From a virus (lineage: Duplodnaviria > Heunggongvirae > Uroviricota > Caudoviricetes): 64,000 nt of DNA. Location: IMG/VR virus record IMGVR_UViG_3300021399_000121, positions 43,502-107,501 of that record; one strand, 5' to 3'. Positions within the stretch are counted from its first letter, which is position 1. Each line of letters begins with the position of its first letter. Positions 1 through 64,000 of this stretch are shown here, in pieces. Made by a program: the position numbers and the translations under genes. Under the pieces are notes generated by a model that was not told the origin of the DNA, searched no databases, and saw only the letters and a list, made by a program, of their open reading frames with translations.

Positions 1-3000
1 AAGGGCGAATGATTATGAGTTAAAACTATTTATAGTGATGGTAATATAGCTATTACCAAATCATATATAGGTACAGATGGTCAAGACGGCAATTCTGTTT
101 CTATTGGATCTATTAATAAAGTTAATGGTAAAACAACTATTACACTTATTGATAGTGATGGAACTCAAAGACAGCCAATTGAAATAGAAGATGGTAAAGA
201 TGGTCAACAAGGTATTACGGGGCCAACTGGCGCAGATGGAAAACCATCATATACCCATTTTGCTTGAGCTAATAAAATTGTAATAAAACAAGATAAGTCC
301 ATAGAGCCGCAAAATTCTGGTTTTTCTACTACTATAAGTGCGGGAAAAAGCTATCTTGGTGTTTATACAGATGATAATATCCAAGATTCTGAAGATATTA
401 ATGATTATTCATGAACATTAATTAAAGGTGAAAATGGATATAGTACAGTAAGAATAGTACTGTATAAACGTGCGGCAAGTGAGCCTACCGCGCCATCTGG
501 TACATTAACTTATACTTTTGCTACAAATAGCTTGTCTGGTAATTTGGATGGTTGGTCAATAGAAATCCCAACTGGTAACAATCCTTGTTGAGCTATTGCC
601 GCGACTGCGACGGGTACTGGTAGTACAGATGAAATTAGTAATGAATGAACTTCTCCCGTTAAAGTATTTGAAGATGGTTCCGCAGGTTTAAATCAAGCTA
701 ATATTATGTTATATCAAAGGAGTCTTGCTAAACCAGATAAACCTACAAGTAATCTTACTTATACTTTTGCTACAAATAATTTATCTGGGACTCTTGGAAA
801 TTGAAGTAGAACAATTCCTGCTTCAAATGGTTTGCCTTGTTGAATTACAACAGCTGTAGCAATTTCAACTAATTCTATAGATACAATTGAGCCAAATGAT
901 TGAGCTGACCCAGTTAAATTTGTTGTTGATGGCGAAGATGGTAAAATTTTAAATATCCTTCCAGGTCTTTATAGTGACGATTTTCCTCTTCCTGCTATTG
1001 GAACAGTTCAAGATGGCGATGCTTATCTTTTTGATGATGGCGATGGTCAATATGATCTTTACTATAAAGGTTCTAGAGCTACACAATGGACGATTGTAGA
1101 AAATTGGCAAGGTGTTCAAGGTCCTAAAGGTGAACAGGGTATCCAAGGTGAACAAGGTATTCAAGGTGAGCGAGGGCCGCAAGGTTATTCAATTTCACAA
1201 ATTATAAATTATTATCTTGCAACTTCTGAATCATCAGGTGTAACAATTTCAACAGCTGGATGAAGTACTGACGCAAGTACTCAAATTATGACAGCTACAA
1301 ATAAATATTTATGGAATTATGAAATTACTAAAAACTCTAATAATCAAACAATAAATACTACAAGTCCAATGATTATTGGTGTATATGGTGAAGATGGATC
1401 AACTGGTGAAGATGGTAAAGGTATTGTTTCTATTACAGAATATTATGCTCGTAATAATAGTAATGTAGCTCCTGGAGATAATGACTTTTCTACAACAGTT
1501 GTTGAACCAAATGCAAATAATAGATATTTATGAAATTATGAAATCATTGCTTATACGACTGGTGATCCCTATAAATCAAATAAGCATATTATTGGCGTCT
1601 ATGGTGAAAAAGGAGAGACAGGTGACCAAGGCCCGCGAGGTGAAACTGGTGAAAAGGGTGACACCGGTGCTCAAGGTCCTCAAGGTGAACAAGGGCCAAA
1701 AGGTGATACTCCCGTAATTACAACTACTAAAAATGGTAAAACAACCACCATTAAAGCAGATGGTGCTTCTATTGGTACAATTATAGATGGCGCTGATGGT
1801 CAATCACCAACCGTTTCCAAGAGTGGGAAAGTTGTTACTATTACTGATGCAGCGGGTGCTACTGTTACTATTAGTGATGGTGAAGATGGAACGTCTATTA
1901 AAGGTGATGATGGTGATGATGCTTGATTCCATATAGCTTGAGCTAATAGTGCAGACGGTACTACAGATTTTTCAACTACTGCTGCGGCTAATAAACTATA
2001 TATGGGGACATATACTGACCATATAGAAACAGATTCTCAATCACCTTCAAAATATAAATGAGTAAAAGTTAAAGGTGAACAAGGTGTTCAAGGAGAAAAG
2101 GGTGACACTGGTGTAGGTATACAATCAGTTACAGAGCAATATGTCCGTAATAATAATGGAGAGTCTGCTCCTTTAACTGGTTGAGGGACAACTGTTCTTA
2201 CTCCAATATCATCTGAAAAATATGTTTGAAATCGTGAAATTATTAATTATACAGATGGAACTAGTTCTGATCCGACTCAGCCACACATTATATCAATTTT
2301 TGGTGAACAAGGTACTGCAGGTAAAGGAATTACTTCTATCGTAGAATATTATAAAGTTAATAATTCAACTACGGCTCCGGCAGAAAATGAATTCTCAACT
2401 ACGGTTGCAGTTCCAACTTCAACTAACCGCTATTTGTGAAATTATGAGGTTATAAATTATACTACAGGGAATCCTACAAAAACTGATAGACGAATTATTG
2501 GAGTATATGGTGAGAAAGGTGACCGAGGTTTAACTGGCCCACAAGGTGAGCAAGGGCCTAAAGGCGATACTGGAACAAGTATAACTGTTACATCTAATGT
2601 GACAGAATATACAAGTTCTACAAGTGGAACCATAAAACCAGATTCTGGATGGCAGTCAACTGTTCCAAGTGTAGCTCAGGGTTCTTATTTATGAACAAAA
2701 GTTACTACTATATTTTCAGATTCAACTGAAGCAGTTAGCTATACTGTCTCACGACAGGGTATAAATGGTACTAATGGTACCAATGGAACTTCTGTAACAG
2801 TAAAAAGTATAGAATATAGTTATCAGCTTTCTACCAATGGAACGACACCCCCTCCTGCGGGAGGTTGACAAAGTGATCCGCAAGCACCTACTACAACACA
2901 ATATGCTTGGACAAAAACAGTTACAACTTATAGTGATAATAGTGTAGCTACTACTTATACAGTAGGTGGTAAAACTGGTACTAATGGTACTAGTTCTTAT

Positions 3001-3441
3001 ACTTATGTGCGGTATGGTACTAATTCTTCTGGAGCGGGAATGACCGATACACCAACCGCATCTACTACTTATATTGGTGTATATGTCGGTGATAGCGCTA
3101 CAGCACCTACAACTGCAAATTCATATATTTGATCTAAGTATGTCGGTGATAAAGGAGAAAAAGGTGATAAGGGGGATAAAGGTGACACTGGACAAACTGG
3201 TGCGACTGGCCCTGAAGCCGTTGTAACTATTGTACCTAGTAATATTAATTGAGATAATAATACCGCTACTCTTGGAGTAGTATTGAGAGTTAATGGAGTT
3301 GTAACGACACCAACTTCATATAGTTGAACCAAAACTACAGGTACATTTACAACGGATTTAAATGTTACTACACCTACATTTACATTAGATGGTAGTACAA
3401 ATAAGTTAAATTCTACATATAATTGTACTGTCACATGATAA
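1..3441 (+). CDS. Collagen-like tail-fibre structural protein, 5'-truncated, TGA-recoded. Start lies upstream of the window; stop is TAA at 3439-3441.
   Basis: A single frame (codon phase of position 1) is open across about 3.4 kb only if the roughly 25 in-frame TGA codons are sense. It contains Gly-X-Y collagen runs (1120-1190, 1600-1720, 2510-2580, 3150-3230). The repeated motif RYLWNYEI uses TGG in one copy (1312-1314) and TGA at the same position in others (1531-1533, 2437-2439). YTHFAWAN/WFHIAWANSADG motifs resemble Firmicutes phage tail-fibre motifs. No TAA/TAG occurs in this frame. Confidence 0.6.
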
Positions 3442-3455
3442 GATAAGGAGATAAA

Positions 3456-6400
3456 ATGAGTACACAAACTGGTTCAATTAGTTTTGAATCTACTGGTACA
3501 ATAAGCCAGCATGTAAAACAAAACTATGCGACTTTGTCACAGATAAAAGGACAATTTGCTACAAGTAGTACTGGTGCAAGCACAGCCGCAAAAGTAGCTA
3601 CAATTGTTCCTCAGAATACTGGTTGAACTCTTTATACTGGTGCAACTGTGACAGTAAAATTTACAAGTAAGAATACAACAACAACGGCGCCCACATTAAA
3701 TGTTAATAATACGGGCGCCAAGCCTATTAAAGATTTTAATGGCAATGATTTAGATAGTGATGCTTATAATTGGCCTGCGGGTGCGGCTATGTCATTTACT
3801 TATGATGGAACCTCTTGGAGATTACAAGATAGTGATTTAATGGAACGTGTTCATAGTGCGGAAACAAAAATTGAACAAAATGCAGAAGATATTGCATTAA
3901 GAGCTACTAAAGAAGAAGTTAATAATGCTATAGATGATGTTAAAGTTACTAAATCTACATGTGGTAGAAGTATTGTAACTGAAGATGCTGCAGATTTACC
4001 TTTACTTAATTTAAGTATTTATGGTGAATGCCAGCAGGACGGGACGCCTACGCCAGACGCGCCAGTGGAGATTAGGAGTGTGCGGGGGAGGAACCTGCTG
4101 GACGTGCCAACTATCGATGAGGTAATCGAGAGGGATACGGGCGATAGCGGAACCTACCACACCATGCCGATTCAGCTCAAGCCGAACACGACCTATCACT
4201 TCACACCTTTCGTCGCAGACGGCTACGAAACGAAAATCGCCAACACGTTTATCCTAATCGCCGAATCCAGCAGCAATACCAACTGGAAGTCGTTCGCCCA
4301 TGCTTCGGTAGGAGCGGTAGGCGGCAACCTCAAAACTGGCGAAGATGGCAGGCTGTGGATAAACGTCTACAAGAATTCATCGTGCCGCGAAAACTATCCG
4401 ACCGTCATGGAAAACGTCAAGGGCATGCTCATCGAAGGCGGCGTTGCGGCAACACGCCATACCCCATACGGCACCGTCGCAGTCGTAGCTCGCGGAAGAA
4501 ACGCATGGAACGAAGCCTGGGAACTTGGAGCGTTCAACACGACAACTGGCGCTAACATCAACAATGGCACTCAGATACGCTCGAAGTACAGGCTGGAAGT
4601 GACGCCTGGCGAGACGTACTACATCGCAGCACCGTCGTATATCTGGATGATTTTCTACGACGGACGCAACAACGTCATAACGGAGGTGCCGTCTGGTAGT
4701 TATGCCAAAAACGGTTATTCGATAGGCTGCGGTGCTATTTACAGCCGCACAGTCACGATGCCAGACAATTGCCATAGCGTACGATTCTATTGCCAAAACA
4801 TGTACGGCACCACCTACAACAACGACATCTGCATCAACGTCAGCGACCCAGACTTCAACGGCCAGTACGAACCCTACAGGGAATCCGTGAGCTACATCGA
4901 CCTGAAGGGCGAGGAGCTGTGCAAACACTCGTCCACTGGTTCGAAATACCGCGACGTGCTTACGATTGACGCGAGCGGGCACGTGACGCTTGAGAAGCGC
5001 ACGCAGGTCGAGACGGTGACTGCTGTCGGCACGGCGGGCGGCACCACGACCAAGTACGCCTCTTTGACCGTCACGCCGAGAGCGAAGAGGTGGTCGAGCA
5101 GCGCCGACGCGGCAGCGGACGGCTACGGCAGCCACCTTTGGAACACGATGCTGGCGCAGGACGCAGCCGCCTACATTGGTGCGACGTGGAACAGCCTGTA
5201 CGCCTACGTCCCTCAATCCGAAGAATGGGAGCAAACCGATTTCGACAAGCTCGTGGGGATGAAGCTCGTTGACCTTCTGCCGCCGAAGGATTGGTACACA
5301 ATCGACCTCGGCTACATCGACCCGCCCACCACGTTCGACGGCGGCACCGTCCACGTGGAGGCCGAGATACAACCGCAAATATGTGGTTCATGATGGACAA
5401 AATCTGGTCAAGAAGCAGGTAATGCACATCAATCTTCAGTTAAAGAAAATGCAGAATTACGTATTGCCGCTGATGGAATTACTTCTGAAGTTTCTAAAAT
5501 TTCAAGTGTAAAATATGTTACCACTGTATATAATTATACTTTAACACAAATTAAAACCTATGCGGCAGAAGGGGATTCTTATAATTGAACCATAGCGAGC
5601 GATGATAGCATTAGAGTTGGAGATACTGTATATGTTAAAGTTCAAGATACTACTCGTACTTGCCCAGTATATATTAAAGTTAAAGTTACAGCGATTTCAT
5701 CTCCTGCCAGAATAACTGGTATATCGCATGGTTATGAAGATGTATTACCAGTTGATACTATTAAATCTACTATTAATCAGTCTGCCGATAGCGTTAAGAT
5801 TGCGGCAAATCATGTAGACATTGAGGGTGCCGCAATATTTAGTAGTGGTGGTGCTTATGATAAATCTACTACAGTAGTTAGTACTCAAACACAATGGTAT
5901 AGTTCTACTAGTGCTACATCCAAAAGTGGCGGAAGTTGAGGAACTACTCAACCTACTGTATCAGCTGGCAGATATATATGACAACGTGAGTTAGTAACCT
6001 ATGCTAATGGTACTACGGCTTATAAACCTTCTGAAGCTGGCGTTTGCATTCAAGGTCAAACAGATTTAAGTAGTTATAGCACTACGGCACAAGCAAATAA
6101 TTTATATGATGCTAAAGGTGCGGCAAATACAGTAAATAATGCCCTTGAAAACTATAAATCAACAACAAATACAACTTTACAGTCATTACAAAGTCAAGTT
6201 GATGGTCAAATTGAAGCATGATATATGGATGGAGCTCCCGCAGAAACATCTTATGCGGCAACTGCCACTCCAACAGATAGTGCTGCTAAAACGTGAACTA
6301 CAAAAGAATTAAAAGATAGACACCTCGGTGACATTTATTATGATATTAACACTGGTCATTCTTGGCGTTGGATGGAAGATGGCTCTAATTATAAATGACA

Positions 6401-8429
6401 ACCAATTCCTGACAGTGATGCGACAGCAGCACTAGCCGCAGCACAGGATGCACAAACTATGGCTAATTCCAAGAGAAGGATATTTACAACTCAACCAACA
6501 CCACCTTATGATGAAGGTGATTTATGGGTTAACGGTAGTGAAATTAGATATTGTAATCAACTTAAAACTAATAGCGGTTCTTATGCGGCAAGTGATTGAA
6601 CTTTAACTGCTACTGATGATACTTTAGCCCAGAGTGCTAAAAATATCGCTGATGCGGCGGCTCCAAAAACTTCAGCAGTCTCCCGCACTCAACGAATATA
6701 TTATCGTCAAACTGCCAATGGGGCTAAGCCAGGAATAAATGAAACATGATTAGCTACTAGTGGAACGGGTTATGGTAATTGATCACTTACTGTGCCCCAG
6801 TTAACGAGTGGTAATACTAAATATCCAAAACTTTATACTGCGGTACAAACTCAAACTGTCGCACAGCAAGCTAATAATGGTACTACTTGTTCATGCTCGC
6901 CAGTGCAACTTGATGATTCAACTACTATTATAGATGGTGGAAATATTATCACAGGAAGTGTTGCAGCTAATAAATTAGACGTATATGATGCTACAATTCA
7001 AAAAATTAAATCTAGTGCTATTGATGTTTCAAGTATTAATATTGGTGATTTAGCTGGTGAAATTGGTGGAAGGAATCTTGTTATCCAGGCCACCCGACGA
7101 CTGGGCCGTTGCCAAAACGGGTCTGATGCTGCGTATAATCAAGGCGCTGATGATGGGCAAAAACACTGGCAGTCTGCCCCTATTGCGGTAAAGCCTGGTG
7201 AACAGTATTCGTTGACAACGCATGGCTGGACTGAAGAATCGGGTCACGCTCGATATGTCGCCATGCATTTTACGACAGACGACCTAACGTGGATAAATCG
7301 CCCCGTAATGCAGGCGTGGGCACCAGCGTTCGAAAATTACACATGGACGGTTACTGCTCCCGACAACGCTGCTTTTGCTCGTGTTTCCGCGCCTAAAGAA
7401 GCATATGAAACAAAGATGAAACTCGAAAAGGGCAACAAGCCAACCGACTGGACTCCGGCCCCCGAGGACATAGACTCCGCAATTGACAACGCTAGTAAAG
7501 TTGCTAGTAATTATATTCATACTGATTCAACCGGTATTAATATATATGATAGTAGTCTTACTAATGCTAGTAAATATTATTTAAGACAAACTGCTAGCGG
7601 CACCTATATTTATAGAAATTCATATCTGAAAGCTAAGTATGAAGATACTATTACACTTTATGGTGGTACTGGAGCTACTAATACTAATACAGATGCTAAT
7701 CCAAAAGTAGAGTTAACATCTAGTGATTTTAAAATGACTGATGCGAGTGGTACTCAAAGATTATTGCTTAACTCTACTGACGGTGTTATAATTGGTAATC
7801 CAAATAAAAGTAAGGTACAAATTACTGATGCGGGCATGACTATTTATGATACTAATAAGAAAAAACGTACCGCAATTGATACTTCTGGTTTACATATCTT
7901 TGATGCAAGTAGTACACCTGTAGAAGTTGCACTATTTGGTTCTACTGTTGAAACTGCTGGAACAACAGCTTTTGCAAGAATTGGTGCAAATAATTCATCA
8001 AGATTTGAGATTAGCCCAACCACTTTAAGTGCATACACTGGTACTACTAAATATTTTGAAGTTAGTGCTAGTGGATTAACTTGAGGAAACAATGTGACTG
8101 CAGCATCACAAAATTATGTTACTAGCCAAGGTTATCAAACTTCTAGTCAAGTAACAAATTTAATTAATACTAATCAAAATGTTATAGATGCAAAAAAACA
8201 TACTCAAGTAATTGTTTCAGCAACTAATGTTGATTATACAGCAGACACATGCACATTAACTGCGAGATTATACATAGATGGTGTATTACAAACTGGCACA
8301 TCATTAAAATGACAATGATATAGAGATGGTACTGCTCAAGGAAGTCAAATAACAGGTGCTACAGGAACGTTGAATGTCACATCTACTCTTGGAATAGCTC
8401 ATCGTTATTCTTGTAAATGTACATTCTAG
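3456..8429 (+). CDS. Giant mosaic tail-fibre/tailspike protein (about 1657 codons) in which TGA is read as Trp. It joins standard-code ORFs 3648..5393, 6792..8084 and 8094..8312 in one frame.
   Basis: An AAGGAG ribosome-binding site (RBS) precedes ATG 3456. One frame contains no TAA/TAG until TAG at 8427-8429. About 15 in-frame TGA codons occur, e.g. 3622, 5391, 5586, 5935, 5977, 6217, 6292, 6394, 6595, 6745, 6781, 8082. The protein is Thr/Ser/Asn-rich and fibre-like. It contains embedded GC-rich islands (4015-5395, 7075-7495). Confidence 0.5.
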
Positions 8430-10950: not shown

Positions 10951-10959
10951 GGTGATTCT

Positions 10960-11374: not shown

Positions 11375-11375
11375 T

Positions 11376-11600: not shown

Positions 11601-11662
11601 GTAACTACTAACAATAGTTAGTGGAAGATATACAAATTATCAAACGAAAGGATGATAACGTT

Positions 11663-52640: not shown

Positions 52641-52667
52641 TCCCTTCTCTCTTGGACTACGTCCAGT

Positions 52668-53875: not shown

Positions 53876-54082
53876 CTAGAAAAGTCTTTCGAGGTCTGCC
53901 CAGCTGTAGCCAATCGCAGGGGAGAGAATCAAGCGGCCAATTCCGATTTGCCATTTGAATTGCTCTTCTGCCTTCTTTTTAGCTTCAAGCAAATCTTCCT
54001 TGGTTGCGAAGAAGTCTACTCGCTGTTCATACAACTCAAAGGTGTCCTCATCTATCCATTCCCAAACCAGCATGAACTCCAT
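53876..54082 (-). CDS. Hypothetical 68-aa protein.
   Basis: ORF track entry; conserved leader. Confidence 0.4.
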   Translation of the reverse strand: MEFMLVWEWIDEDTFELYEQRVDFFATKEDLLEAKKKAEEQFKWQIGIGRLILSPAIGYSWADLERLF

Positions 54083-54277
54083 GATTTTTCCTTTCTCTCT
54101 CTCCCTGATGAATACATAATACTACAAAACATTACAGGATGCGGCATTTCCACATAATCTTCACAATTGCGATATTTTCTTTCTCTACCGGGTGTAAAGT
54201 GAATTTCGTTCGCGCTGGGCCCAGCGCGAACGCTGAGAGAGTTGCGGCTCTCTCGCGTTCATGATTTAAGCTCTTTT

Positions 54278-54724
54278 TTACAGCAGCTCCCGCAAAGCTG
54301 CAATCATCTTTTTAGTATCGGATGCATCTATCGTTTCACCCTTCCAAGCATTCCGCACGTCTGAATTATCGTCTACCAGAATAGAGTCTTTCACATTCCG
54401 CACATAATGTTTAGGAGTACCATATTTCACAACATGAAATTCAGAAAATACGCCAGGGAAGTATTCATCGCACCATATCTTTTTGGCTTTGCGGGTACGC
54501 CTACAATATTCACGGCTACCACCCATAGCACCCCAAGAGATAACACCAAGAATAAAACCTGCGGCCAGCAGTGCATTGAAAAGTTGCCGCAACTCTTCTA
54601 TATCAAAGATAACCGCGCAATCTTTATATGGAGTTGTATCTTCTACTTTCAGCATTTCCAGCCATCCCTCATATCCGTAGAGGTCTGCAATTGTTCCGTC
54701 CATGTCAAAATAGATAGCCTGCAT
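54278..54724 (-). CDS. HAD-superfamily phosphatase.
   Basis: FDMDGTIADL matches HAD motif I (DxDGT); 148 aa. Confidence 0.5.
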   Translation of the reverse strand: MQAIYFDMDGTIADLYGYEGWLEMLKVEDTTPYKDCAVIFDIEELRQLFNALLAAGFILGVISWGAMGGSREYCRRTRKAKKIWCDEYFPGVFSEFHVVKYGTPKHYVRNVKDSILVDDNSDVRNAWKGETIDASDTKKMIAALRELL

Positions 54725-55264
54725 TTGATTTCCTTTCTCTCAGTGATTACATACTACCATAATTCGTCTCTTGGAGTTATGGGATTCGCATATTCATAAT
54801 ATATACATATATTGCGAGTACGATTTTTCCCTGTTCATGCAAAAGGGCAATTCGGCCATTTGCTCTGAAAAACGCGCCGCAAATGGCCGGTTAAGCCTTA
54901 TACGCTTATAATTACATTATATCATAGCTTGAATTATATGTCAACCAGTTTGTCAAAAAATTTCTTATATTCACAAAATTCACACATTTGACCTTATAGT
55001 ACTGTATGTTTGCTTTATGTGCTTTATATGGAGATTTTGTGGAGATATTGTGTAGTTTCAGGATTGTAAAATAATTGTGTAGATATTGTGAAGACTCTTG
55101 ATTTTTCTCTATGTATATGGCACAATATCTCGCCCAACTTGTGGAGATTTTGTGGAGATATTGTGAAGATAATTGTGGAAATATTATGTTTTCAATGTGC
55201 AATTATTGAGGAGAAGCGACCCCTTTGTGGGGCCGCCCCCCTTTAAAACATGTGAATATTGAGC

Positions 55265-55561
55265 TTACAACTCAACAATAGAGATAAACTCATCGCCGTT
55301 CGGGTAACGCACGCCACCGCACATATACCCGAACATGTCCGCCAATTCGTCCAACGTCTCAATATAATCATCGTCGCTAGGAAACAGGCCATCAAACACG
55401 ACTTCGCAGCCCTGATACGAATACAGAATGTTTTCGTAAGCATACAGAGACAAGACATTGTCGCCGTATGTATTTGTATGCGAGTAGTTCATCATTTCGT
55501 CGAACAGGCTCTCAAGGTGATTTTTAACGCTTGCGTTGTTGGTGTTCATTTGGTAGGTCAT
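55265..55561 (-). CDS. GC-rich small protein (MTYQMNTNNASVKN...).
   Basis: Trimmed start; the 5' leader hairpin is TTGACCCGAAGGGTCAA. Confidence 0.4.
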   Translation of the reverse strand: MTYQMNTNNASVKNHLESLFDEMMNYSHTNTYGDNVLSLYAYENILYSYQGCEVVFDGLFPSDDDYIETLDELADMFGYMCGGVRYPNGDEFISIVEL

Positions 55562-56032
55562 CTTAGTTCCTCTCTCTTTCGGTTGACCCTTCGGGTCAAT
55601 TATAGCGTTGTCAATACTTTTTTTCAATGTTTTTTAAAATTAATCGGTGAGCGGTTAAATTAATCGGTAAATGGTAATTTTAGGATAGTATAAAATAATT
55701 GTGTAGATTTTGTGTAGACTATTGTTTTTTCTTTGCAAGTGTGGTATAATTTTTCGCTGAGATATGTAGATTTTGTGGAGATTTTGTGGAAATAAATTCA
55801 TAGAAAAAACATAATAATTTACATAATAAAAACATAATTAATTCATACAATCCTCATAATTATTTTACATAATCTCCATAATCAGGATACAAAATAAATT
55901 GTGTAAATGTTGTGAAGAGTCTTGATTTTTCTCTACATATGTGGTATAATATTTCGCCAATTGTGGAGATTTTGTGAAGATTTTGTGGAGATAATCGTGG
56001 GGAGGCCGAAGCCTCCCCTCATGGTCATGTTG

Positions 56033-56311
56033 TTAGAGTTCTTGAACCCTTACATATTTGAACATGTACCAGTATCCATTAATAAGTGCGGACTCATGCT
56101 CAATAAACAATTCATATCCAAACTCTGGGAGAATGTCGGCAAGTTCGTACATGTCAATGTACCCCGTTTTCTCACTCTGTAACACTTGCCATGTCCCACT
56201 GTTTTGCAATTCATCCATCGAAGCCCACGTGTTTGCGCTAGCGTCTGTTTCGACCTGATGCGCGAGGATTGTCTCTATAATCTCGTTGATGTAGTTTTTC
56301 ATGTTCGCCAT
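56033..56311 (-). CDS. GC-rich small protein (MANMKNYINE...).
   Basis: Trimmed start; the leader hairpin is GGCCCTACGGGCC. Confidence 0.4.
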   Translation of the reverse strand: MANMKNYINEIIETILAHQVETDASANTWASMDELQNSGTWQVLQSEKTGYIDMYELADILPEFGYELFIEHESALINGYWYMFKYVRVQEL

Positions 56312-56799
56312 TTGAGTTCCTTCCACTCGGTTTTTGTTTGGCCCGTAGGGCCATTTTACTCTTGTCAATAGGTAAAATCAACGTTTTTTAAAATTAATCG
56401 GTAAACGGTTAAATTAATCGGTAAATGACAATTTAAGATAATATAAAATAATTATGTAGATTTTGTGGAGATTTTATAAAGATTTTGTGAAGATTAATTC
56501 ACAGAAAAAACATAATAAAAGCATAATTAATTCATACAATCTTCATACAATCTCCGGTTTTAGGACACATAATCTACATAAAATCTACATACTATCTTCA
56601 TATTTTCTTCACAATTGCGTGGTATAATTTTTTCGCCGAGATATGCAGATTTTGTGAAGATTCTGCATTTAGTCTTGATTTTTTTCTACAGGCGTGGTAT
56701 AATTTTTTCGCTAGTCATGGAGATTTTGTGGAGATATTACATTTAATATTGACAAATAAAAAGCCCCTCATTTGAGGGGCTTTTGAATCACAATTCATT

Positions 56800-57132
56800 T
56801 TAGCGGCTGTTGTACGTTTCACGCGCTGGACGATTCATAAAGTCGTTGAGGTCTTTCAACAAGGGGAGTAATTCAGAGTTGAAAAATGACTCATCGTCCC
56901 ACACAGTAGCAGCAGTTTGCTTTGCGAGGAAGTGAAGCGCCATCCCAGCAGTTTTACCCTCAGTGTGCGCTTGAGGGTGGTCATAAGTGTACAGGCTCGC
57001 AAGGTAACCGCACTCATAAGGAGAAACCCAAATTTCTACATTACCACGAGTAGCGATATAGCGCATGCCCTCGCGCGTGTTCAGAGCTTCAAATGTTCCG
57101 TTGTTCTTCGTTGCTTTAGTCATTTCAATCAT
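56800..57132 (-). CDS. Hypothetical 110-aa protein.
   Basis: Leader hairpin GAACCCTACGGGTTC. A bidirectional terminator lies at 56760-56786. Confidence 0.45.
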   Translation of the reverse strand: MIEMTKATKNNGTFEALNTREGMRYIATRGNVEIWVSPYECGYLASLYTYDHPQAHTEGKTAGMALHFLAKQTAATVWDDESFFNSELLPLLKDLNDFMNRPARETYNSR

Positions 57133-57618
57133 CCTTCCTGTTGAACCCTACGGGTTCATTGTAGTCTTGTCAATAGGTAAAATCAATATTCTACATAAAT
57201 CTCCATACAAATAACATAATTAAAATTACATACAATCTACATAATTAATTCACATAATCTACATAATGAAAACATAATTAATCCATACGATCTACACAAT
57301 TAGGACACAAAATAAATTGTGGAGATTTTGTGTAGGCTCTTGACATTTTTCTGCGGGTGTAGTATAATATTTCGCCAATTGTGGAGATTTTGTGGAGATT
57401 TTGTGGAGATTAATCCACAGAAAAAACATAATTAATTCACACAATCTACATAATAAAAACATAATTAATTCACACGATCTACACAATTTCAGGATACTTT
57501 AATTGTGTAAAAGTTGTGGAGTTTTTGTGGATTTTTTATGGAGAGCGCGTCAAAATGGTAAAATCGCTCGTTTGCCCTATGCGTGGGTCCGCAAACGAGC
57601 GGCCAGCCCTTTCAAGCT

Positions 57619-57768
57619 GGCCAGGTTGTATTCAGCTACACTCTAGAACGGAGCGTAGGCCAGTTCTCCAGCGTTGGGCTGTGCCGCAATCCACATCTCG
57701 CAGTCAACCTCACAGACCAACCCTTCCTTGACGACCTTGCCAGTAGCCTTCTCGAATACTGTCCACAT
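57619..57768 (-). CDS. About 49-aa protein, MWTVFEKATGKVV...APF. It is paralogue 1 of a pair.
   Basis: Conserved leader AGGAAAGGACAGGACATG. Its sequence aligns with the product of 57960..58091. Confidence 0.35.
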
Positions 57769-57959
57769 GTCCTGTCCTTTCCTCTCCTGCTGACAGGTCT
57801 ATTATACACCTGTGCCCCTGCCGCATGTATGAGAATCAGGATACTCCACAATCTCTACACAACTATATAGATCGCTTGATCTTTCTCTTGGTGCGTGTAA
57901 AGGACATTTCGCTCGCCTAGGCCCGTAGGCGAGCGCTGGGAGGTCTTACTATCCCAGTG

Positions 57960-58091
57960 CTCTGAGCAGGACTAGAATGGCGCGCAATCCAGTTCGTCTC
58001 TATTCTCCTGCGCGTCAATCCACATCATCGCATCTACCTCAGTCTCGAACCCGTCCGCTACGACCTTGCCCGTGTTCTTGTTGAAGACCGT
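57960..58091 (-). CDS. About 43-aa protein, MWTVFNKNTGKVV...APF. It is paralogue 2 of the pair.
   Basis: Forms the C-terminal part of ORF 57972..58385; follows its own leader and promoter. Confidence 0.35.
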
Positions 58092-58302
58092 CCACATATT
58101 CTTTCCTCTCTCTCTTTCTGACATAATCATTGTACCACAAGTCGTGCCGCATGTAAAGATAGATTCAGGACTCTCCACAATCTCTACACAACTCTTTCTC
58201 TTGGATGATCTTTCTTGTGGTGCGCATAAACGATAATTCGCTCGCTGCGGCCCACAGCGAGCGGCCAGGTCTTTGTAGTTTACTGTGCGGTACTGGGGCA
58301 GG

Positions 58303-58526
58303 CTAGTTGCCCAGCCCCATAGCGTCCAGCATATCCCACACTTTGTAGTCATCTGCAGTGGTTCCTGTGGGAGTGAAGTCTGCAATCTCTACTATCCGTA
58401 CGCTTCCGCGCTTGTAGCACGAGTATGTACGAGCTTCTGCCGCATTGTTCTTGCAGGTGGAGAGAGAACCCCACCAGTGCAGGCAGGTCTCGGTGGAGTT
58501 GGCGAAGGTGGCGATGACTGCGAACA
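58303..58526 (-). CDS. GC-rich small protein (MFAVIATFANSTETC...).
   Basis: Trimmed start behind the leader GAGAGAAAGGATACAACATG. Confidence 0.4.
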
Positions 58527-59212
58527 TGTTGTATCCTTTCTCTCTGACAAGTACATAATACACCTTAACTGTATCTGTGTACAGTCTCTTCACAATCTTT
58601 TCATAAGTTTCAGGATATGAAAGATCATATTAGAATATGTATTTGGAAACTATTTTTATTTCTAGTATGCGTAAGTGACAATTCGCTCGTGTTGGCCCAA
58701 CACGAGCGAGCATCGTGAGAGTGTGCACGAGAGAGCGTGCGCGCAAGACCGCACAAAGCCTGCAAAGACGTGCCAGCAAGCGAGACAGCCGGGCTGCACG
58801 AACTGTCCTCTCTTGGGGTGATGGGAGGGTGTAGACATTGTTGCTATTATTTTATCGGTCGAGTATAGAAGACTGTTACATCATTATGATGATAAATAAA
58901 CTTCCTAGTAGGGGGGGTGATTATGGGATTTTTTAATATTGACTTGTGAAATGTCTTTTGCCTCGCAATCCAAAGAACGTACTTTAAATTTTAAATTTCA
59001 AGAACGTACTTAAGAATCCAAATCAAAATTTCCTATATTAAAATTTCCCAATATATCAAATTTCGGAAAACTTACCTCTCTAAAAATTATATTATATAGC
59101 TTAAAATTTTATGTTTCTATCCAAAAAAGTCATAGACAGTGTTGCTTTGTCAGTGATATAATAAGAATAGAAATAAAAGATTTGAGCTTAGCTTAAATCG
59201 GAAAGGAAGCAG

Positions 59213-60310
59213 ATGACAAAAAAATTAGATTATTCACTTAAAACACCAAAAGAGAGAGCTAAATGTGTTGAAGAAGTCATAGCATCCACTCCTAAAGAAC
59301 AATTAACACAAACATATCTTAATTATTTAGGCGATTATATATTATTTATTAGAGAAAAGGGGCAAACAAAAGGACATAACCTTCTTACTAAAAATAGAGA
59401 AACTATAATTAAAAGAAGAGAAAAATCATATGAAGATATTGTTAATAGTCTAGAAGGTGGTGAAGATGCTCTCCATAACCTTATAAACAATGATAAAAAT
59501 CAATTGTTAGATTATAAAGAAAAAATATCAGAAGAAGAAGCTTTAGCTGACCCGAGATTTCAAGAAAAAATGCGAACTATACAATCTCTTAAAAAAGCTT
59601 TTGATGCGGCAACTGATAGTTCTAAACGTTTTAAATTAAAACAGCAAATTATTGAAACATGACAAGAAATTTATATTATTAAAGCATCATACAAACAAAC
59701 AACAACAGGACGACTTTCTCCGCAAATGCGGCAAATGGGATATATAGATTTAGAAGAAAAAGTTGAGGTACTCCCAGATGGTAAGCTAGATATTAAATCA
59801 ACATTAACTCTTTTAAAACCAGAACATATATCTTTTTTATTAAATTATTATGCTCAACTAAAAGAAGAAATAAATGAAGATCTTAATAGCGATTTGCGGT
59901 GATTATTAGTTGATTTAGAAGATTTAGTTCATAGGACTTTGTCTGGACCAGATCAAACAGCTGTAAACAATGAAATTCTTTATGACTTAATTATTTGAAA
60001 AATAGATGGATTAAAAAATAAAGAAATAGTTGAACTTATGCGGCAAAGATATGGAGTGGTTCATTCAGAACAATATTATTCTACACTTTGACGCAAAAAT
60101 ATTCCCAATCTTTTAGCAAGACAAGCTCAAAAAGAATGACTTATTTGACATTTTTCTCAAGAAGAATATGGGGATTGGAAAAAATGTACAAAGTGCGGCG
60201 AATGGAAAATCGCAAGTCCTTATTTCTATGACCGTTCTCCAATTTCTAAAGATGGCTATTATCCTCAATGTAAGGAGTGTCGTTCTACTCGTAAAAAAAA
60301 TAAAAAGTAA
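59213..60310 (+). CDS. TGA-recoded late protein with a C-terminal zinc ribbon; six in-frame TGA codons.
   Basis: ORF 59213..59662 continues through the TGA at 59660 and five further TGA codons to TAA at 60308-60310, ending KCTKCGEW...CKECRS. Confidence 0.45.
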
Positions 60311-60324: not shown

Positions 60325-61536
60325 ATGCCAGAAAAAATTATTTGTACACAGTGCGGCAGAGAAAAAGCAGAAAAAGAATTCTTTATGATGAAAACTCATG
60401 AACGTTATCCTGTTTGTAAAACCTGCCTTACTATGTATATAGATAATACAGATCCATCAACTTTTAAATGAATCCTTGAAAAATTTGATGTACCCTATAT
60501 TGAGCGAGATTGAAAAGAAGAAGCTCAGAATGCCTATGATAAGAATCCCGCAAACTTTTCAGGAGCTTCAGTTATTGGTCGCTATTTGCGGCGTATGAAT
60601 ATGACGCAATATCGTAATCTCACCTATGCAGATACAGCACGTCTAGCCGCAGAAGAAGAAAAACGTCAACAAGAAGCAGCCGCACGAGTAAGTTTAGCAT
60701 CTGAAGATGAGCAAGAAGAATTTATGAATCTTCAAGCTAAACTTGATGCGGGAGAGATTTCTCAAGCTGAATTTGATACCCTTAATCCTCTTATGCGGGG
60801 AGTAGAAAGACAGCAAAGCCGCAAATATACTTTTGACCAAGAGCAGATAGGTATAAATGAAGATGATATTTTAGCAGAATTAACTGAAGAAGATAAAAAG
60901 ATGCTCGCTACTAAATGAGGTATAGTGTATAAGCCTTCTGAATGAGTTCATATGGAAGAAACATATACAAAGTATGCTAATGAATATGAGCTTAATGTAG
61001 ACCGTGAACTTACTCTTAAACAAATCTGTAAACTTGAATTAAAGATGGATCAAGCTTTAGATGTTGGTGATACAGGGGCATATAAATCATTACAGCAATC
61101 ATATGATGCTCTTCGCAAATCATCTAAATTTACAGAGGTTCAAAATAAAGAAGGTCAAACACGTTATCTTGATTCTATCGGAGAATTGGTACAATTCTGC
61201 GAACGCGAAGGTGGGTTAATTAATCAATTACCAGACCCAGACGAGTATCCCGAAGATAAAATAGATTTTACAATTAAAGATATGAAAGCATATATCCGTA
61301 ATCTTGTAACCAATGAACTTGGTCTTGGTGATTTGATTGAATCATATGTTAAGAAACTTGAAGATGCGGAGAGAGAAAAAGAAAAATCTCTTGATGCGGG
61401 ACTATACACATCTATCGAAGAAGAACTTGCGGATCAAGTAACGCCGCAAGAAGAAATAGAATTCCAAGAATACCTAGATAATGAAGTAGAAGAAGAAGCT
61501 GCTCGTCTCTTGGAAATGCTTGGTGGTGATGCATAA
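60325..61536 (+). CDS. Putative small terminase subunit with an N-terminal zinc ribbon, TGA-recoded.
   Basis: RBS AAGGAGGAAGGATAT precedes ATG 60325. It joins ORFs 60586..60918 and 60952..61536 through four sense TGA codons. It lies immediately upstream of the large terminase. Confidence 0.35.
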
Positions 61537-63293
61537 TGGCATTAAAGGATTTATTGTCAGTATCTAATAACCAAATAAAAGATATTGAAATATCTGAAGA
61601 ATTGTTGCGGCGAGACCTCGACAAATATCGTGAGCTTATCGCATATTGAAGAATGTATCCAGATAGATTAATTGATTATTATTGCAGCTTAAATCCAGAT
61701 AATAGATTTCATTTATTCTTTTATCAAAGATTATTCCTTCGTTGTCTTATGCGGCACAAGATAGTTTATGCAACATTCGTTCGTGCTTGGTCTAAATCTT
61801 TTATGTCTGTTATGGGATTAATGCTTAAATGTATTCTTTATCCAGGAGCTAAAGTATTTACTGTTGCGGGCGGTAAGGAACAGTCTGCGTCGATTGTATC
61901 ATCTAAAATAGATGAAATTTGTACTTTAATTCCGGCTATGGAGCGTGAAATTATATGAGATACGCGTGGTAAACGAGCTACAACAAGACAAACAAAAGAT
62001 AGTGTAACCTATTCCTTCAAGAATGGTTCTCAATTATCTAACGTTGCGGCGAGTGAGAAAACTCGTGGTGCTCGTTTCCATTCAGGTCTTATGGAAGAAT
62101 GTGTTGGTATTGATCAAGATATATTAAATGAAGTTATAGTTCCTACAATGAATGTTAATCGCATGGTCAATGGTGAAACTGATCCAAAAGAACCATTAAA
62201 TAAATCTCAAGTATTCATTACTACTGCTGGTTATAAAAATACTTATTCATATGAAAAACTTATTCAAATACTTTGTCAAGCTGTTGCACGTCCAAAAGAA
62301 GCTATAGTTTTAGGTGGGTCATGAAGAGTTCCTGTTGTTGAAGGTCTCTTGGACCGTGATTTCGTTACTCAGTTGCGGCTTGATGGTACATTTAATGAAG
62401 CTGCTTTTGATCGTGAGTATGAATCTCGTTGAACTGGTGATATTGAATCAGCATTCTTTAATAGTGAAATTTTTGATAAACATAGAGTGCTTAATCTTGC
62501 AGAGTATAAACCTAATGGTCGTATGTCTGCAAAAGGTTATTATTTAATGGGTGTTGACGTTGGACGTTTTGGATGTACCACAGAAGCTTGTATATTTAAA
62601 GTTACACCAGCTCCATCAGGAGTACCATTAAAACAATTAGTTAATATTTATACTTTTGAAGCAGAGCATTTTGGTTTACAAGCTATTAAACTTAAGAAAT
62701 TATTTAATCAATATAAATGTCGTGCAGCTGTTATTGACGGGAATGGTCTCGGTGCAGGGCTAGTAGATTTTCTTGTTACAGATCAAATTGATCCAGATAC
62801 AGATGAAGTATTATATAATTGAGGTGTTATAAATGACGAAGACCGTAAATATAAAAAATTTCAAACACCTGAAACAATTTATGATGCTATGTATATTATG
62901 AAAGCAAATGCTCAATTAAATACTGAAATGTATGCTTATTGTCAATCACAGATGCGGAATGGTAAAATTAAATTTTTAATTCCTGATAATCTTGCTAAAG
63001 ACAAATTAATGCAACAGGCACAGGGGAAGAAGATGTCGCCAGAACAACGTGCAAGTTATTTGCTTCCCTATGTTCAAACAAATATTCTTAAAGATCAAAT
63101 GCTTAATATGATTGAAGAATCTGAAGGTGCCAATATTATTTTAAAGCCTGCAAATAAAAAAATTAAACACGATAAATTTTCTGCTTTAATATATGGATTA
63201 TACTATTGTAAGTTAGAAGAAGATAAAGGTAAAAAACGTTCTGGCCGCAATATTTCAGATTTTATGATGTATACAAAACCTATTATGCACTAA
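61536..63293 (+). CDS. terL: Terminase large subunit, TGA-recoded. It joins ORFs 61653.., 62091.., 62487.. and 62889..63293.
   Basis: A single frame of 586 codons contains five sense TGA codons (61647, 61956, 62322, 62430, 62820). An N-terminal ATPase-like region is present. The C-terminus has RNase-H-like nuclease motifs VGVDVGRFG and AAVIDGNGLGAG. Confidence 0.55.
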
Positions 63294-63385: not shown

Positions 63386-63745
63386 ATGTTATCAAGCCAA
63401 GGTGAAATTAAAATTCATGAATTTTTAACCTATGGAAATATTCCTTTTGAAGAAGAATATATTTTTGATGATTTAACCGCAGAAAATGGTAAGCATTTAC
63501 GTTTTGATTTTTGTTGTTTTGATGATGATGGAAATATTGATTGTCTTATTGAATATAATGGGCGTCAACATTATGTACCAGTTAGTAAATTTGGTGGTAA
63601 AAAAGGGCTTTTCCGTCAGCAGCATAATGATGCATTAAAACGAAGATACTGCTTAGAACATGGATATAGATTAATAACTATTCCATTTACAGAAGAAAAC
63701 CGATTAAGTTATGATTATTTAATGAATTTAATTAACGGTTATTAG
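63386..63745 (+). CDS. Small PD-(D/E)xK/DUF559-type nuclease-like protein, possibly a homing endonuclease.
   Basis: RFDF ... IEYNGRQHY ... QHNDALK ... GYRLITI resembles restriction-endonuclease-like small nucleases. It lies between the terminase and portal genes. Confidence 0.35.
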   Translation: MLSSQGEIKIHEFLTYGNIPFEEEYIFDDLTAENGKHLRFDFCCFDDDGNIDCLIEYNGRQHYVPVSKFGGKKGLFRQQHNDALKRRYCLEHGYRLITIPFTEENRLSYDYLMNLINGY

Positions 63746-63755
63746 GAGGTGCGGT

Positions 63756-64000
63756 TTGGCTTTTTATAAAGAAAAGCATCAAAGAGATTTTCGATTACAT
63801 TCTAATACAACAAATACCTCCACTCTTGACTTTTCTAAAATTAAAGTAGGTAAAAATACTTTAAATGGTGAGATTGCAACTTTAATTAATTATTATAAAT
63901 CTTCCAATCGTCTTTATGATAAACAAATCGTTGAACGCGCAATTAATAGACGCGATATCAAAGAAATGAGACGTATTTCAAATTATTTCTTTGAAACAAG
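63756..64000 (+). CDS. Probable portal protein, 3'-truncated at the window edge.
   Basis: RBS TTAGGAGGTG precedes TTG 63756; the reading frame is still open at the window end; it directly follows terL. Confidence 0.3.
   Translation, partial: MAFYKEKHQRDFRLHSNTTNTSTLDFSKIKVGKNTLNGEIATLINYYKSSNRLYDKQIVERAINRRDIKEMRRISNYFFET

What the first reader, a model, noticed from the sequence alone, without database searches (positions are those of the whole stretch)
1..64000. TGA is read as Trp in the late/structural modules, while early genes avoid TGA altogether
In 1-12.8 kb and 59.2-63.3 kb, long frames (tail fibres, terminase) stay open only when TGA is sense. The repeated peptide RYLWNYEI uses TGG at 1312-1314 but TGA at the equivalent position at 1531, 2227 and 2437, which points to TGA = Trp rather than Gly or a stop. 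In the 13-47 kb early/middle block, Trp is encoded by TGG in essentially every gene checked, and about 50 genes stop with TAA or TAG. Only three genes there end at TGA, and in each case reading through it runs on in frame. This matches phage-driven late-phase code switching on a standard-code host rather than a code-4 host.
Basis: partly seen in the sequence, partly recalled or inferred. Interest (0 to 1): 0.85.

Follow-up and report, generated by a model that had tools for sequence, protein, structure and literature searches.

The report
Phage late genes read TGA as tryptophan
This is part of a ~136 kb gut or rumen phage that writes tryptophan as the stop codon TGA in its virion and packaging genes but not in most other genes, a trick already known in phages; a near-identical copy of the genome carries the matching suppressor tRNA next to its cell-lysis genes, and that tRNA has a second, tryptophan-type anticodon arm that I could not find described in the papers I could search.

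Summary
In 1-12.9 kb and 59.2-64 kb, 12 plus-strand ORFs stay open only if TGA is sense: 61 in-frame TGA against 39 TGG, and no TGA stops. The other 62 ORFs have 152 TGG, at most 3 in-frame TGA and 59 TAA/TAG stops (Fisher p = 4e-28).

TGA means Trp. All 5 TGAs in the terminase align with W in 116-119 of 119 homologues. Across late genes, standard-code relatives show W at 813 aligned positions, and Ser or Gly at about 10 each.

The phage is SPbeta-like. Its terminase clade mixes standard-code, TGA-recoded and TAG-recoded members (phAss-1 group). The case matches Borges et al. 2022, so it is a new member of a known kind.

The window has no tRNA(UCA). Contigs 98.6-98.9% identical to it carry one about 11.6 kb past the right end, directly upstream of the holin and a heavily recoded GH25 endolysin.

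That tRNA has a long variable arm whose loop copies the Trp anticodon loop (UCCAAA). In IMG/VR, 23 of 23 long tRNA(UCA) carry CCA there and 30 of 31 long tRNA(CUA) carry CUG/UUG. I found no description of this. It suggests how host TrpRS/GlnRS still charge these suppressors.

The parts
1..3441 (+). 3' part of a collagen-like tail-fibre gene. It has 23 in-frame TGA and 6 TGG, and includes the RYLWNYEI-type repeats.
   Evidence: L009 shows it belongs to an 1863-aa gene
3456..8429 (+). Tail-fibre gene of 1657 aa with 14 TGA and 23 TGG. It is a mosaic: TGG-only stretches at 3771-5394 (about 50% GC) and 7167-7449, and TGA-rich stretches elsewhere.
8442..10478 (+). Receptor-binding tail protein of 678 aa with 9 TGA and 1 TGG.
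   Evidence: (phrog_7127, phrog_3285)
10643..12337 (+). Four small late ORFs. 10643-10951 has 1 TGA, 10952-11374 has 2, 11376-11600 has 0, and 11621-12337 has 1.
59213..60310 (+). Sigma-factor-like protein with a C-terminal zinc finger; 6 TGA and 2 TGG.
   Evidence: phrog_5767, 1.5e-32
60325..61536 (+). YonG-like protein; 4 TGA and 0 TGG.
   Evidence: YonG_N in relatives; (W 109 opposite TGA)
61536..63293 (+). Terminase large subunit (YonF-like). Five TGA at 61647, 61956, 62322, 62430 and 62820, and one TGG at 61788.
   Evidence: each TGA column is W in 116-119 of 119 homologues
63756..64000 (+). Start of the portal gene; no TGA in the part inside the window.
12900..47300 (+). Block of 53 ORFs that is standard-code apart from the two or three in-frame TGAs listed as separate parts: 129 TGG, stops TAA 40, TAG 10 and TGA 3. 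It holds the tRNA array, ROOL RNA, RNA-repair genes and host-surface genes.
47000..59200 (-). Cluster of small minus-strand standard-code genes: 23 TGG, no TGA in frame, and no TGA stops.
   Evidence: (relatives' proteins map here on the minus strand)
30401..31402 (+). Exception: a gene with TGA as codon 4 (30410-30412), behind the RBS AAAGGAGG and a TTGACA/TATAAT promoter. The TGA is probably sense.
44650..45456 (+). Exception: a DNA-binding-like gene with TGA at codon 107 (44968-44970), probably sense. Four direct repeats lie upstream of it.
27258..27445 (+). Possible exception: a small zinc-ribbon ORF whose two CxxC pairs lie on either side of TGA 27338.
   Evidence: weak coding score, undecided
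14954..14956 (+). Genuine TGA stop of gene 14675-14956.
19866..19868 (+). Genuine TGA stop of the RNA-ligase gene 18591-19868.
24891..24967 (+). Phage tRNA-Trp(CCA), anticodon loop CUCCAAA, with A1-U72 and G73. It is the only Trp tRNA in the window. No tRNA(UCA) is present, even at relaxed thresholds.

Best explanation
The window is about half of a ~136 kb SPbeta-like siphophage of a walled Gram-positive gut or rumen bacterium. In this lineage many Trp codons of the virion, packaging and lysis genes have changed from TGG to TGA.

Under the host's standard code these genes end early. They are read in full only when a phage tRNA with anticodon UCA is present. That tRNA is not in the window. In near-identical contigs it lies about 11.6 kb beyond the right end, in a short unit made of a consensus promoter, a 57-aa ORF, the tRNA and a terminator. 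The unit sits directly upstream of the holin and a GH25 endolysin that has 12 TGA against 3 TGG. Most other genes stay readable in standard code.

Shown here: TGA stands at ancestral Trp positions; recoding is restricted to certain modules; close relatives use the standard code; and near-identical genomes carry the suppressor gene.

Inferred: the tRNA is charged with Trp by the host TrpRS, possibly through its second, CCA-bearing arm; the host uses the standard code; and the arrangement gates late and lysis proteins, as Borges et al. proposed.
For: - Module contrast: 61 TGA to 39 TGG in late ORFs, against at most 3 TGA to 152 TGG elsewhere, p = 4e-28. Of 50 TGAs with coding sequence on both sides, all lie in 1-12.9 kb or 59.15-64 kb.
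- Trp meaning. Trp content equalises only if TGA is Trp.
- Relatives: L001 is standard-code. The clade mixes codes 4, 11 and 15.
- Suppressor: tRNA(UCA) at L128:13428-13524, with homologues in L129, L130, L214-216 and L220-222. L048 is 98.6-98.9% identical to the window and 100% identical to ENA contig L003.
- Compensated changes in the acceptor and anticodon stems of the tRNA.
- Promoter and terminator around the tRNA; GH25 endolysin next to it.
- Standard-code relatives L217-219 lack the small ORF and the tRNA at that site.
- Walled-host genes.
- Published precedent for the whole pattern.
Against: - No protein or expression data exist for this phage.
- The suppressor was seen in 98.6-98.9% identical contigs, not in the window's own molecule.
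- The host is unknown. MAG bin labels for relatives include Bacilli, Clostridia and 'Mollicutes/Tenericutes'.
- The tRNA's shape would predict a Ser acceptor by the criteria of Mukai et al.: 8-bp acceptor stem, 4-bp T stem, long variable arm and G73.
- Its promoters look like ordinary sigma-70 consensus sites, so late timing is not established.
- Two or three in-frame TGAs lie outside the late modules.
Confidence: 0.85

Rival explanations
1. The host itself uses code 4 (UGA = Trp, as in Mycoplasma or Spiroplasma), and the phage simply follows it.
For: Some relatives' contigs were binned into MAGs labelled Mollicutes, Tenericutes or Bacilli. The two real TGA stops are backed up by TAA/TAG within a few codons.
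Against: - TGA is absent from the reading frame of about 60 non-late ORFs, although those ORFs hold 152 TGG and hundreds of off-frame TGAs.
- Sister phages use TGA as a stop.
- The phage carries its own tRNA(UCA).
- The GH25 muramidase, TagF-like enzyme and LPXTG pilin imply a cell wall.
- Bin labels of whole-phage contigs are weak evidence.
Confidence: 0.05
2. TGA is read as Gly (code 25, a Gracilibacteria or Absconditabacteria host) or as Ser, inserted by an allo-tRNA-like suppressor charged by SerRS.
For: The suppressor has a long variable arm, G73 and an 8/4 shape. Its best Rfam match is tRNA-Sec at 39.3 bits. Mukai et al. found that such tRNAs insert Ser in E. coli. In L226 the small ORF has Ser (AGT) where the others have TGA.
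Against: - Opposite TGA, standard-code homologues have W 813, then F, Y and L. Ser is at 10 and Gly no higher.
- Four of the five terminase TGA sites are invariant W.
- TGG to TGA is a single transition.
- A1-U72, G73, C35 and A36 fit bacterial Trp identity, an inference from published identity rules.
- The variable-arm loop copies the Trp anticodon loop.
Confidence: 0.05
3. No dedicated suppressor is needed. UGA is read through by the phage tRNA-Trp(CCA), in the manner of the Hirsh suppressor, or through weak RF2 activity.
For: The window holds a tRNA-Trp(CCA) and no tRNA(UCA). Only 35% of TGA-recoded phages had a detectable suppressor in Borges et al..
Against: A tRNA(UCA) is present in near-identical genomes and in TGA-recoded relatives, and it is absent at that site from standard-code relatives. 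Sixty or more read-through events per virion gene set would need near-complete suppression.
Confidence: 0.04
4. The late frames are pseudogenes, assembly errors or a chimeric contig.
For: None found.
Against: The same TGAs recur in independent assemblies from ENA, Logan and IMG/VR. Homology is continuous across every TGA. Coding statistics continue in frame on both sides.
Confidence: 0.01

Closest known systems
TGA-recoded 'Agate' and 'Jade' phages of gut Firmicutes (Borges et al. 2022; bioRxiv 10.1101/2021.08.26.457843)
   Same: TGA read as Trp in structural and lysis genes while other genes stay in standard code. Clades mix codes 4, 11 and 15. Very close standard-code relatives use few TGA stops. 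Homing-endonuclease genes are recoded. [quoted passage not shown] Genomes are about 127 kb or larger.
   Different: Membership in Agate was not tested, because no reference sequences were available. No TrpRS or RF1 was found in the window. The odd architecture of the suppressor tRNA is not mentioned in that paper.
phAss-1 / 'Phassvirus' group (Babkin et al. 2023, PMC10607447; OQ749652)
   Same: Same broad terminase clade (43% identity) and a similar genome size (135,976 bp). It is a gut phage whose recoding affects virion genes and which carries suppressor tRNAs.
   Different: phAss-1 recodes TAG to Gln (code 15). Its suppressors are tRNA(CUA) and lie next to nrdD. This phage recodes TGA to Trp.
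Bacillus phage SPbeta and relatives (Enterococcus phages H1 and EF1, Geobacillus virus E3)
   Same: The YonG, YonF (terminase), YonD, YonB, YomW, YomV and YomU gene order and Pfam families.
   Different: Those phages use the standard code.
allo-tRNAs and tRNA-Sec-like tRNAs (Mukai et al. 2017, PMC5389517)
   Same: 8-bp acceptor stem with a 4-bp T stem, a long variable arm, a longer anticodon stem and G73. They are found in phages and rumen Clostridia.
   Different: Those are predicted or shown to be Ser, Ala or Cys acceptors. Here the decoded residue is Trp by conservation, A1-U72 is present, and the variable-arm loop carries the Trp anticodon. Some relatives have a 7/5 version with a group I intron.
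Code 4 of Mycoplasma and Spiroplasma and their phages
   Same: UGA = Trp, read by a tRNA(UCA).
   Different: There the whole genome and the host share the code. Here only certain modules do.

Membership tests
Stop-codon-recoded phage, TGA to Trp (as defined by Borges et al. 2022) | In-frame TGA in conserved genes, aligning best with Trp | tested here: met
Stop-codon-recoded phage, TGA to Trp (as defined by Borges et al. 2022) | Recoding concentrated in structural and lysis genes, with other modules in standard code | tested here: met
   two or three exceptions
Stop-codon-recoded phage, TGA to Trp (as defined by Borges et al. 2022) | Close relatives that use the standard code | tested here: met
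   L001, L011, L031 and others
Stop-codon-recoded phage, TGA to Trp (as defined by Borges et al. 2022) | Phage-encoded suppressor tRNA(UCA) | tested here: met
   Absent from the window. Present in 98.6-98.9% identical contigs at L128:13428-13524.
Stop-codon-recoded phage, TGA to Trp (as defined by Borges et al. 2022) | Host uses the standard code | tested here: inconclusive
   Cell-wall-directed genes argue against Mollicutes. No host genome or spacer match was obtained.
Stop-codon-recoded phage, TGA to Trp (as defined by Borges et al. 2022) | Trp found at TGA positions in peptides | not testable with these tools
   Needs metaproteomics, as in Peters et al. 2022 (PMC9523058).
'Agate' clade | Terminase groups with the Agate reference genomes | not tested
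The resemblance rests on size, host phylum and code mix only.
Phage of a code-4 host | TGA used for Trp throughout the genome | tested here: not met
   At most 3 in-frame TGA against 152 TGG in 62 non-late ORFs.
Code 25 phage (TGA = Gly) | TGA aligns with Gly | tested here: not met
   Gly does not reach 10 of about 1,070 aligned residues.
SPbeta-like phages | YonG/YonF/YonD/YonB/YomW/YomU module | tested here: met
   Pfam families in relatives' syntenic loci, and PHROG and tblastn hits.
tRNA-Sec (Rfam RF01852) | Score at or above the gathering threshold | tested here: not met
   39.3 and 34.4 bits against a threshold of 47.
(8/4) allo-tRNA (Mukai et al. 2017) | 8-bp acceptor stem, 4-bp T stem and a long variable arm | tested here: met
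   L128, L130 and L220 types. L129 folds 8/4 by hand parse and 7/5 by ARAGORN and RNAfold. L214 and L216 types are 7/5.
(8/4) allo-tRNA (Mukai et al. 2017) | Serine identity | not testable with these tools
   Conservation argues for Trp. Charging assays are needed.

The most novel reading that the evidence does not exclude
Phage nonsense-suppressor tRNAs may keep their amino-acid identity by carrying a second anticodon stem-loop as the variable arm. That arm displays the original, cognate anticodon: CCA in UGA-reading tRNAs and CUG/UUG in UAG-reading tRNAs. Host TrpRS or GlnRS would then still recognise the tRNA, while the true anticodon arm reads the stop codon.

The pattern itself is observed:
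- All six tRNA(UCA) variants of this lineage show it.
- So do three tRNA(CUA) variants of the phAss-1 group.
- In a scan of IMG/VR that left the variable region free, 23 of 23 long tRNA(UCA) and 30 of 31 long tRNA(CUA) show it. Neither set carries the other set's triplet in the arm's loop.
- The stems are diverse and compensated, and the loops are often exactly 7 nt with the triplet at loop positions 3-5.

The functional reading, as a synthetase identity mimic, is inference. I found no description of the pattern in the searchable literature.
Probability: 0.4. Interest if true: 0.85.

Novelty: new member of a known kind. Interest (0 to 1): 0.5.

Why it matters
The recoding itself adds one more lineage to a known phenomenon: SPbeta-like phages, with all three code states side by side. 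It also shows that annotating such contigs under table 11 shreds their virion genes.

The more useful outcome concerns an open question that Borges et al. stated themselves: how are phage suppressor tRNAs charged with the right amino acid by host synthetases that read the anticodon? The two-anticodon-arm architecture gives a concrete hypothesis that can be tested by mutation. It also gives a simple sequence signature, a long variable arm bearing CCA or CUG, for finding suppressors and predicting which amino acid they insert. If it works as proposed, it is also a natural design for orthogonal suppressor tRNAs.

Tried and rejected
1. **47-59 kb as a third code or a giant RNA.** The region is ORF-poor in every stop-codon set, and Rfam finds nothing there. 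Proteins of relative L001 map to its minus strand, so it is a cluster of small standard-code genes.
2. **Megablast of 22 kb of the window against GenBank phages.** No match. An exact 33-mer from the window's left end is not in IMG/VR.
3. **Prophage or host search.** The terminase alone found nothing in genomes. With an alignment, only whole-phage contigs binned into MAGs came back, so no host was assigned.
4. **The 166-aa standard-code gene upstream of the suppressor as a code-change factor.** Rejected. It has no Pfam or PHROG hit, and it is present at the same place in standard-code relatives that lack the tRNA.
5. **The 57-aa ORF with a conserved TGA as an obligatory leader of the tRNA.** Weakened. 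The ORF occurs without a following tRNA in L226, L229 and L230, and in L226 it has Ser in place of TGA.
6. **Hirsh-type read-through by the window's tRNA-Trp(CCA).** I considered this from the D-stem pairing but did not pursue it once a tRNA(UCA) was found.
7. **Homologue search for gene 44650-45456.** Only one hit came back, so the sense reading of TGA 44968 rests on coding statistics and on that one in-frame fusion.
8. **BLAST of the suppressor tRNAs against GenBank phages.** Only phAss-1 itself was found.
Full report
**1. What the window is**

The window is 36% G+C and almost all of its genes are on the plus strand. The exception is 47-59 kb, which carries small minus-strand genes.

- The terminase large subunit (61536-63293) is YonF-like. 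Its best annotated relatives, at 42-45% identity, are Enterococcus phage H1, Geobacillus virus E3, Alicyclobacillus phage KKP_3916 and the human-gut phage phAss-1.
- Relatives' loci carry the SPbeta module YonG, YonF, YonD, YonB, YomW, YomV and YomU.
- Near-identical contigs of 135,661 and 135,697 bp exist in ENA, so the window is about half of a ~136 kb genome.
- It runs from the end of the tail-fibre genes (1-12.8 kb), through an accessory block (13-47 kb) and a minus-strand cluster of small genes (47-59 kb), to the start of the packaging and head genes (59.2-64 kb).
- The accessory block holds 19 tRNAs, a ROOL RNA, two RNA ligases, a kinase, a phosphoesterase, a dCMP deaminase, an LPXTG pilin-like protein, a TagF-like enzyme, an SPFH protein and a glycosyltransferase.

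**2.

- With TGA as sense, six long frames open in 1-10.5 kb and 59.2-63.3 kb.
- The 12 late ORFs hold 61 in-frame TGA and 39 TGG, and none ends in TGA.
- The 62 other ORFs hold 152 TGG. Their stops are 47 TAA, 12 TAG and 3 TGA.
- A test that uses no gene calls asked for coding-like codon usage in the 30 codons on each side of a TGA, with no TAA or TAG among them. It finds 50 such TGAs: 38 in 1-12.9 kb, 12 in 59.15-64 kb, and none in between.
- Composition does not explain this. The plus-strand non-late genes carry 757 off-frame TGAs.

**3. TGA means tryptophan**

- All five terminase TGAs sit in columns where 116-119 of 119 homologues have W. Four of these columns are invariant in a 38-sequence alignment.
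- I aligned the late proteins of the window and of near-identical contigs against the loci of 67 standard-code relatives. The residues opposite TGA are W 813, F 59, Y 56 and L 44; Ser is at 10 and Gly no higher.
- Trp content of the late genes is 1.82% if TGA is Trp and 0.71% otherwise. The other genes have 1.61-2.86%.
- This excludes Gly (code 25), Ser and termination.

**4. Exceptions and corrections**

- TGA 14954 and 19866 are true stops. Coding statistics collapse after them, and TAA or TAG follows within a few codons.
- TGA 44968 is probably sense. The coding signal continues in the same frame and there is no start codon for 37 codons. The only relative found has a different N-terminal segment fused in frame at exactly that point.
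- TGA 30410 is codon 4 of a 333-aa ORF that follows a strong RBS and a consensus-like promoter.
- TGA 27338 lies between the two CxxC pairs of a small zinc-ribbon ORF and remains undecided.
- So the non-late genes avoid TGA almost entirely, but not completely.
- Nothing shows that the 13-47 kb block is 'early'.

**5. The recoding belongs to the phage, not to a code-4 host**

- Relative L001 (terminase 74% identical) has 8 TGG and 0 TGA in its terminase, no in-frame TGA in 26 genes, and two TGA stops.
- An ORF-gain test on 127 loci shows that the terminase clade mixes three states. Its standard-code members include the closest relative at 77% identity.
- The TGA-recoded members are this species and others at 65-70% identity.
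- The TAG-recoded members lie mostly at 50-57% identity and include phAss-1, which NCBI files under 'code 15 clade'.
- The phage encodes a GH25 muramidase endolysin, a TagF-like teichoic-acid polymerase and an LPXTG pilin-like protein. These make a wall-less Mollicute host unlikely.
- The host itself was not identified. Relatives in genome collections are whole-phage contigs binned into MAGs with mixed labels.

**6. Where the suppressor is**

- The window has a tRNA-Trp(CCA) but no tRNA(UCA), even at relaxed thresholds. No window ORF I scanned matches a release factor or TrpRS.
- IMG/VR contig 3300021256_000149 is 98.6-98.9% identical to window 58.7-64 kb and 100% identical to the 135.7 kb ENA contig over 15.5 kb.
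- Walking along that contig found a 97-nt tRNA with anticodon UCA at L128:13428-13524. This is about 11.6 kb beyond the window's right end.
- The gene order there is: tail tube; a 515-aa gene; a 166-aa standard-code gene behind a perfect TTGACA-18-TGnTATAAT promoter; a second consensus-like promoter; a 57-aa ORF; the tRNA, starting 2-3 nt after that ORF's stop; a strong terminator; a holin-like gene; and a GH25 endolysin with 12 TGA and 3 TGG.
- Standard-code relatives have the 166-aa gene followed directly by a terminator and the holin, with no small ORF and no tRNA.
- Placing the code-change gene immediately upstream of the lysis cassette is what Borges et al. reported for Jade phages.

**7. 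Comparison with the literature**

- Borges et al. already describe each of the following: TGA-to-Trp recoding confined to structural and lysis genes of gut phages of Firmicutes; clades that mix codes 4, 11 and 15; standard-code relatives above 90% ANI; scarce TGA stops in those relatives; recoded intron endonucleases; and suppressor tRNAs detected in only 35% of TGA-recoded genomes.
- Babkin et al. describe the TAG-recoded phAss-1 group in the same broad clade.
This is a new member, possibly of the 'Agate' clade, though I could not test that.

**8. The unexpected part: the shape of the suppressor**

- ARAGORN calls it tRNA-SeC. Its best Rfam match is tRNA-Sec, below threshold (39.3 against 47 bits).
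- It has an 8-bp acceptor stem, a 4-bp T stem, a 6-bp anticodon stem, a long variable arm, A1-U72, G73 and an encoded CCA end. This is an 'allo-tRNA' shape, which Mukai et al. associate with serine.
- Conservation nonetheless says Trp is inserted (point 3).
- Six variants of this tRNA exist in relatives. The L128 and L130 versions differ only by four fully compensated anticodon-stem pairs. L129 and L220 have other acceptor stems.
- L214 and L216 are 7/5-type, and a group I intron splits their anticodon loop after CUU (Rfam RF00028, E = 1.4e-7).
- In all six, the variable arm is a 5-8-bp hairpin whose stem differs between variants but whose loop keeps UCCA(A/C)A. Three variants have exactly CUCCAAA or GUCCAAA, which is the anticodon loop of tRNA-Trp, including the window's own copy.
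- The TAG-recoded relatives have the mirror image. phAss-1 and its IMG/VR relatives carry long tRNA(CUA) whose variable-arm loops read YCUGAA, the Gln anticodon.

**9. Is the two-anticodon-arm pattern general?**

- I scanned IMG/VR with two patterns that fix only the anticodon loop, the T loop and a 28-52-nt spacer. The variable region was left free.
- Of 23 distinct long tRNA(UCA), with 14 different 5' ends, all 23 have CCA in the variable region, and 22 have it as U-CCA-R.
- In their minimum-energy hairpins, 11 have a 7-nt loop with CCA at loop positions 3-5, and 6 have a 9-nt loop with CCA at positions 4-6. Nineteen have G73 and 17 have A1-U72.
- Of 31 distinct long tRNA(CUA), with 22 different 5' ends, 30 have CUG or UUG there.
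- Neither set has the other's triplet in the arm's loop.
- Where the surrounding locus gave a clear answer, UCA tRNAs sit in TGA-recoded DNA (9 to 0) and CUA tRNAs in TAG-recoded DNA (13 to 1).
- Ordinary Leu, Ser and Tyr tRNAs from the same loci have 4-6-nt variable-arm loops without such triplets.
- The stems printed differ widely and are compensated.
- Seven literature searches found no description of this. The library lacks most subscription journals, so novelty is not certain.

**10. Reading of the extra arm**

- TrpRS and GlnRS both use the anticodon as a main identity element; this is established knowledge. Borges et al. noted that only Trp and Gln reassignments occur in phages whose code differs from the host's.
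- A second arm that shows the cognate anticodon would let the host enzyme charge a tRNA whose real anticodon now reads a stop codon.
- This is inference. How the enzyme would reach that arm is open: by direct contact, or by the two equal-sized arms swapping places.
- Alternatives are an evolutionary relic of an arm duplication, or a decoy for some other anticodon-binding protein. The conservation of the loop against diverging stems argues against a mere relic.

**11. Verdict**

The phenomenon is already described, so the finding as written is a new member of a known kind.
- The mechanism is completed by a suppressor tRNA that lies outside the window.
- That tRNA's architecture is the item that deserves follow-up.

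Noticed in passing
L128:13428-13524 (outside the window, about 11.6 kb past its right end); also L129, L130, L214-L216, L220-L222, L232:16546-16633 and IMG/VR loci L242-L481: Phage suppressor tRNAs with a long variable arm whose loop copies the cognate anticodon: CCA in tRNA(UCA) and CUG/UUG in tRNA(CUA). Seen in 23 of 23 and 30 of 31 distinct long tRNAs from an IMG/VR scan that did not constrain the arm.
   Followed up: yes
L214:~6790-7080 and L216:1440-1626: In some TGA-recoded relatives, a group I intron interrupts the anticodon loop of the suppressor tRNA(UCA) after CUU. Rfam RF00028 gives 41.8 bits, E = 1.4e-7, in L216.
   Followed up: partly
L128:13252-13425 and homologues: A 57-62-aa ORF with its own consensus promoter and a conserved in-frame TGA at codon 23 ends 2-3 nt before the suppressor tRNA. 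It also occurs without the tRNA (L226, L229, L230), and in L226 it has Ser in place of the TGA. A feedback role is possible but unsupported.
   Followed up: partly
window 21245-21821 (+): A full-length ROOL RNA (Rfam RF03087, 331 bits) lies just upstream of the tRNA array.
   Followed up: no
window 22610-25154 and 30118-30294: An array of 19 tRNA genes. One of them, a tRNA-Gln(UUG)-like gene at 23326-23396 with a C31-A39 mismatch, is missed by default ARAGORN. Five tRNAs (Phe, Gln, Ile at 23399, Glu, Lys) have non-canonical T loops: ATCGTTA, AGCGTTA, ATCGTAG or ATCGTGG.
   Followed up: no
window 16027-20992 and 33210-34055: An RNA-repair gene set lies near the tRNAs: two RNA ligases, an AAA_33/zeta-like kinase, a Metallophos_2 phosphoesterase and an RlaP-like nucleotidyltransferase. 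It is plausibly a counter-measure to host anticodon nucleases.
   Followed up: no
window ~44455-44580: Four direct repeats of TGTCCCAAAAGTATCTA lie upstream of the DNA-binding-like gene 44650-45456. They look like iterons or operator sites.
   Followed up: no
window 3456-8429: The tail-fibre gene is a mosaic. The stretches 3771-5394 (about 50% GC) and 7167-7449 use almost only TGG (one TGA, at 5391), while the remaining stretches hold nearly all the TGAs. This suggests recently imported standard-code segments.
   Followed up: partly
window 61876 (terminase); L002, L003, L048: The terminase shows intron polymorphism between strains. The window is intron-less. L003 and L048 carry a LAGLIDADG insertion. 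L002 carries an HNH/NUMOD intron whose endonuclease gene itself contains in-frame TGAs.
   Followed up: partly
window 25244-28413, 31625-32575, 35997-36623: Host-surface accessory genes: an LPXTG/Cna-B pilin-like protein, a TagF-like glycerophosphotransferase, an SPFH protein and a family-2 glycosyltransferase. They point to a Gram-positive host.
   Followed up: partly
window 59213-60310: The sigma-factor-like gene at the head of the late module is itself recoded (6 TGA). Its product would therefore also depend on the suppressor.
   Followed up: no
L209, L210, L213 (unrelated IMG/VR contigs): Elements with CTTCAAA, a spacer of about 40 nt and GGGGTTCGACTCC. ARAGORN does not call them tRNAs. 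They are unresolved.
   Followed up: no
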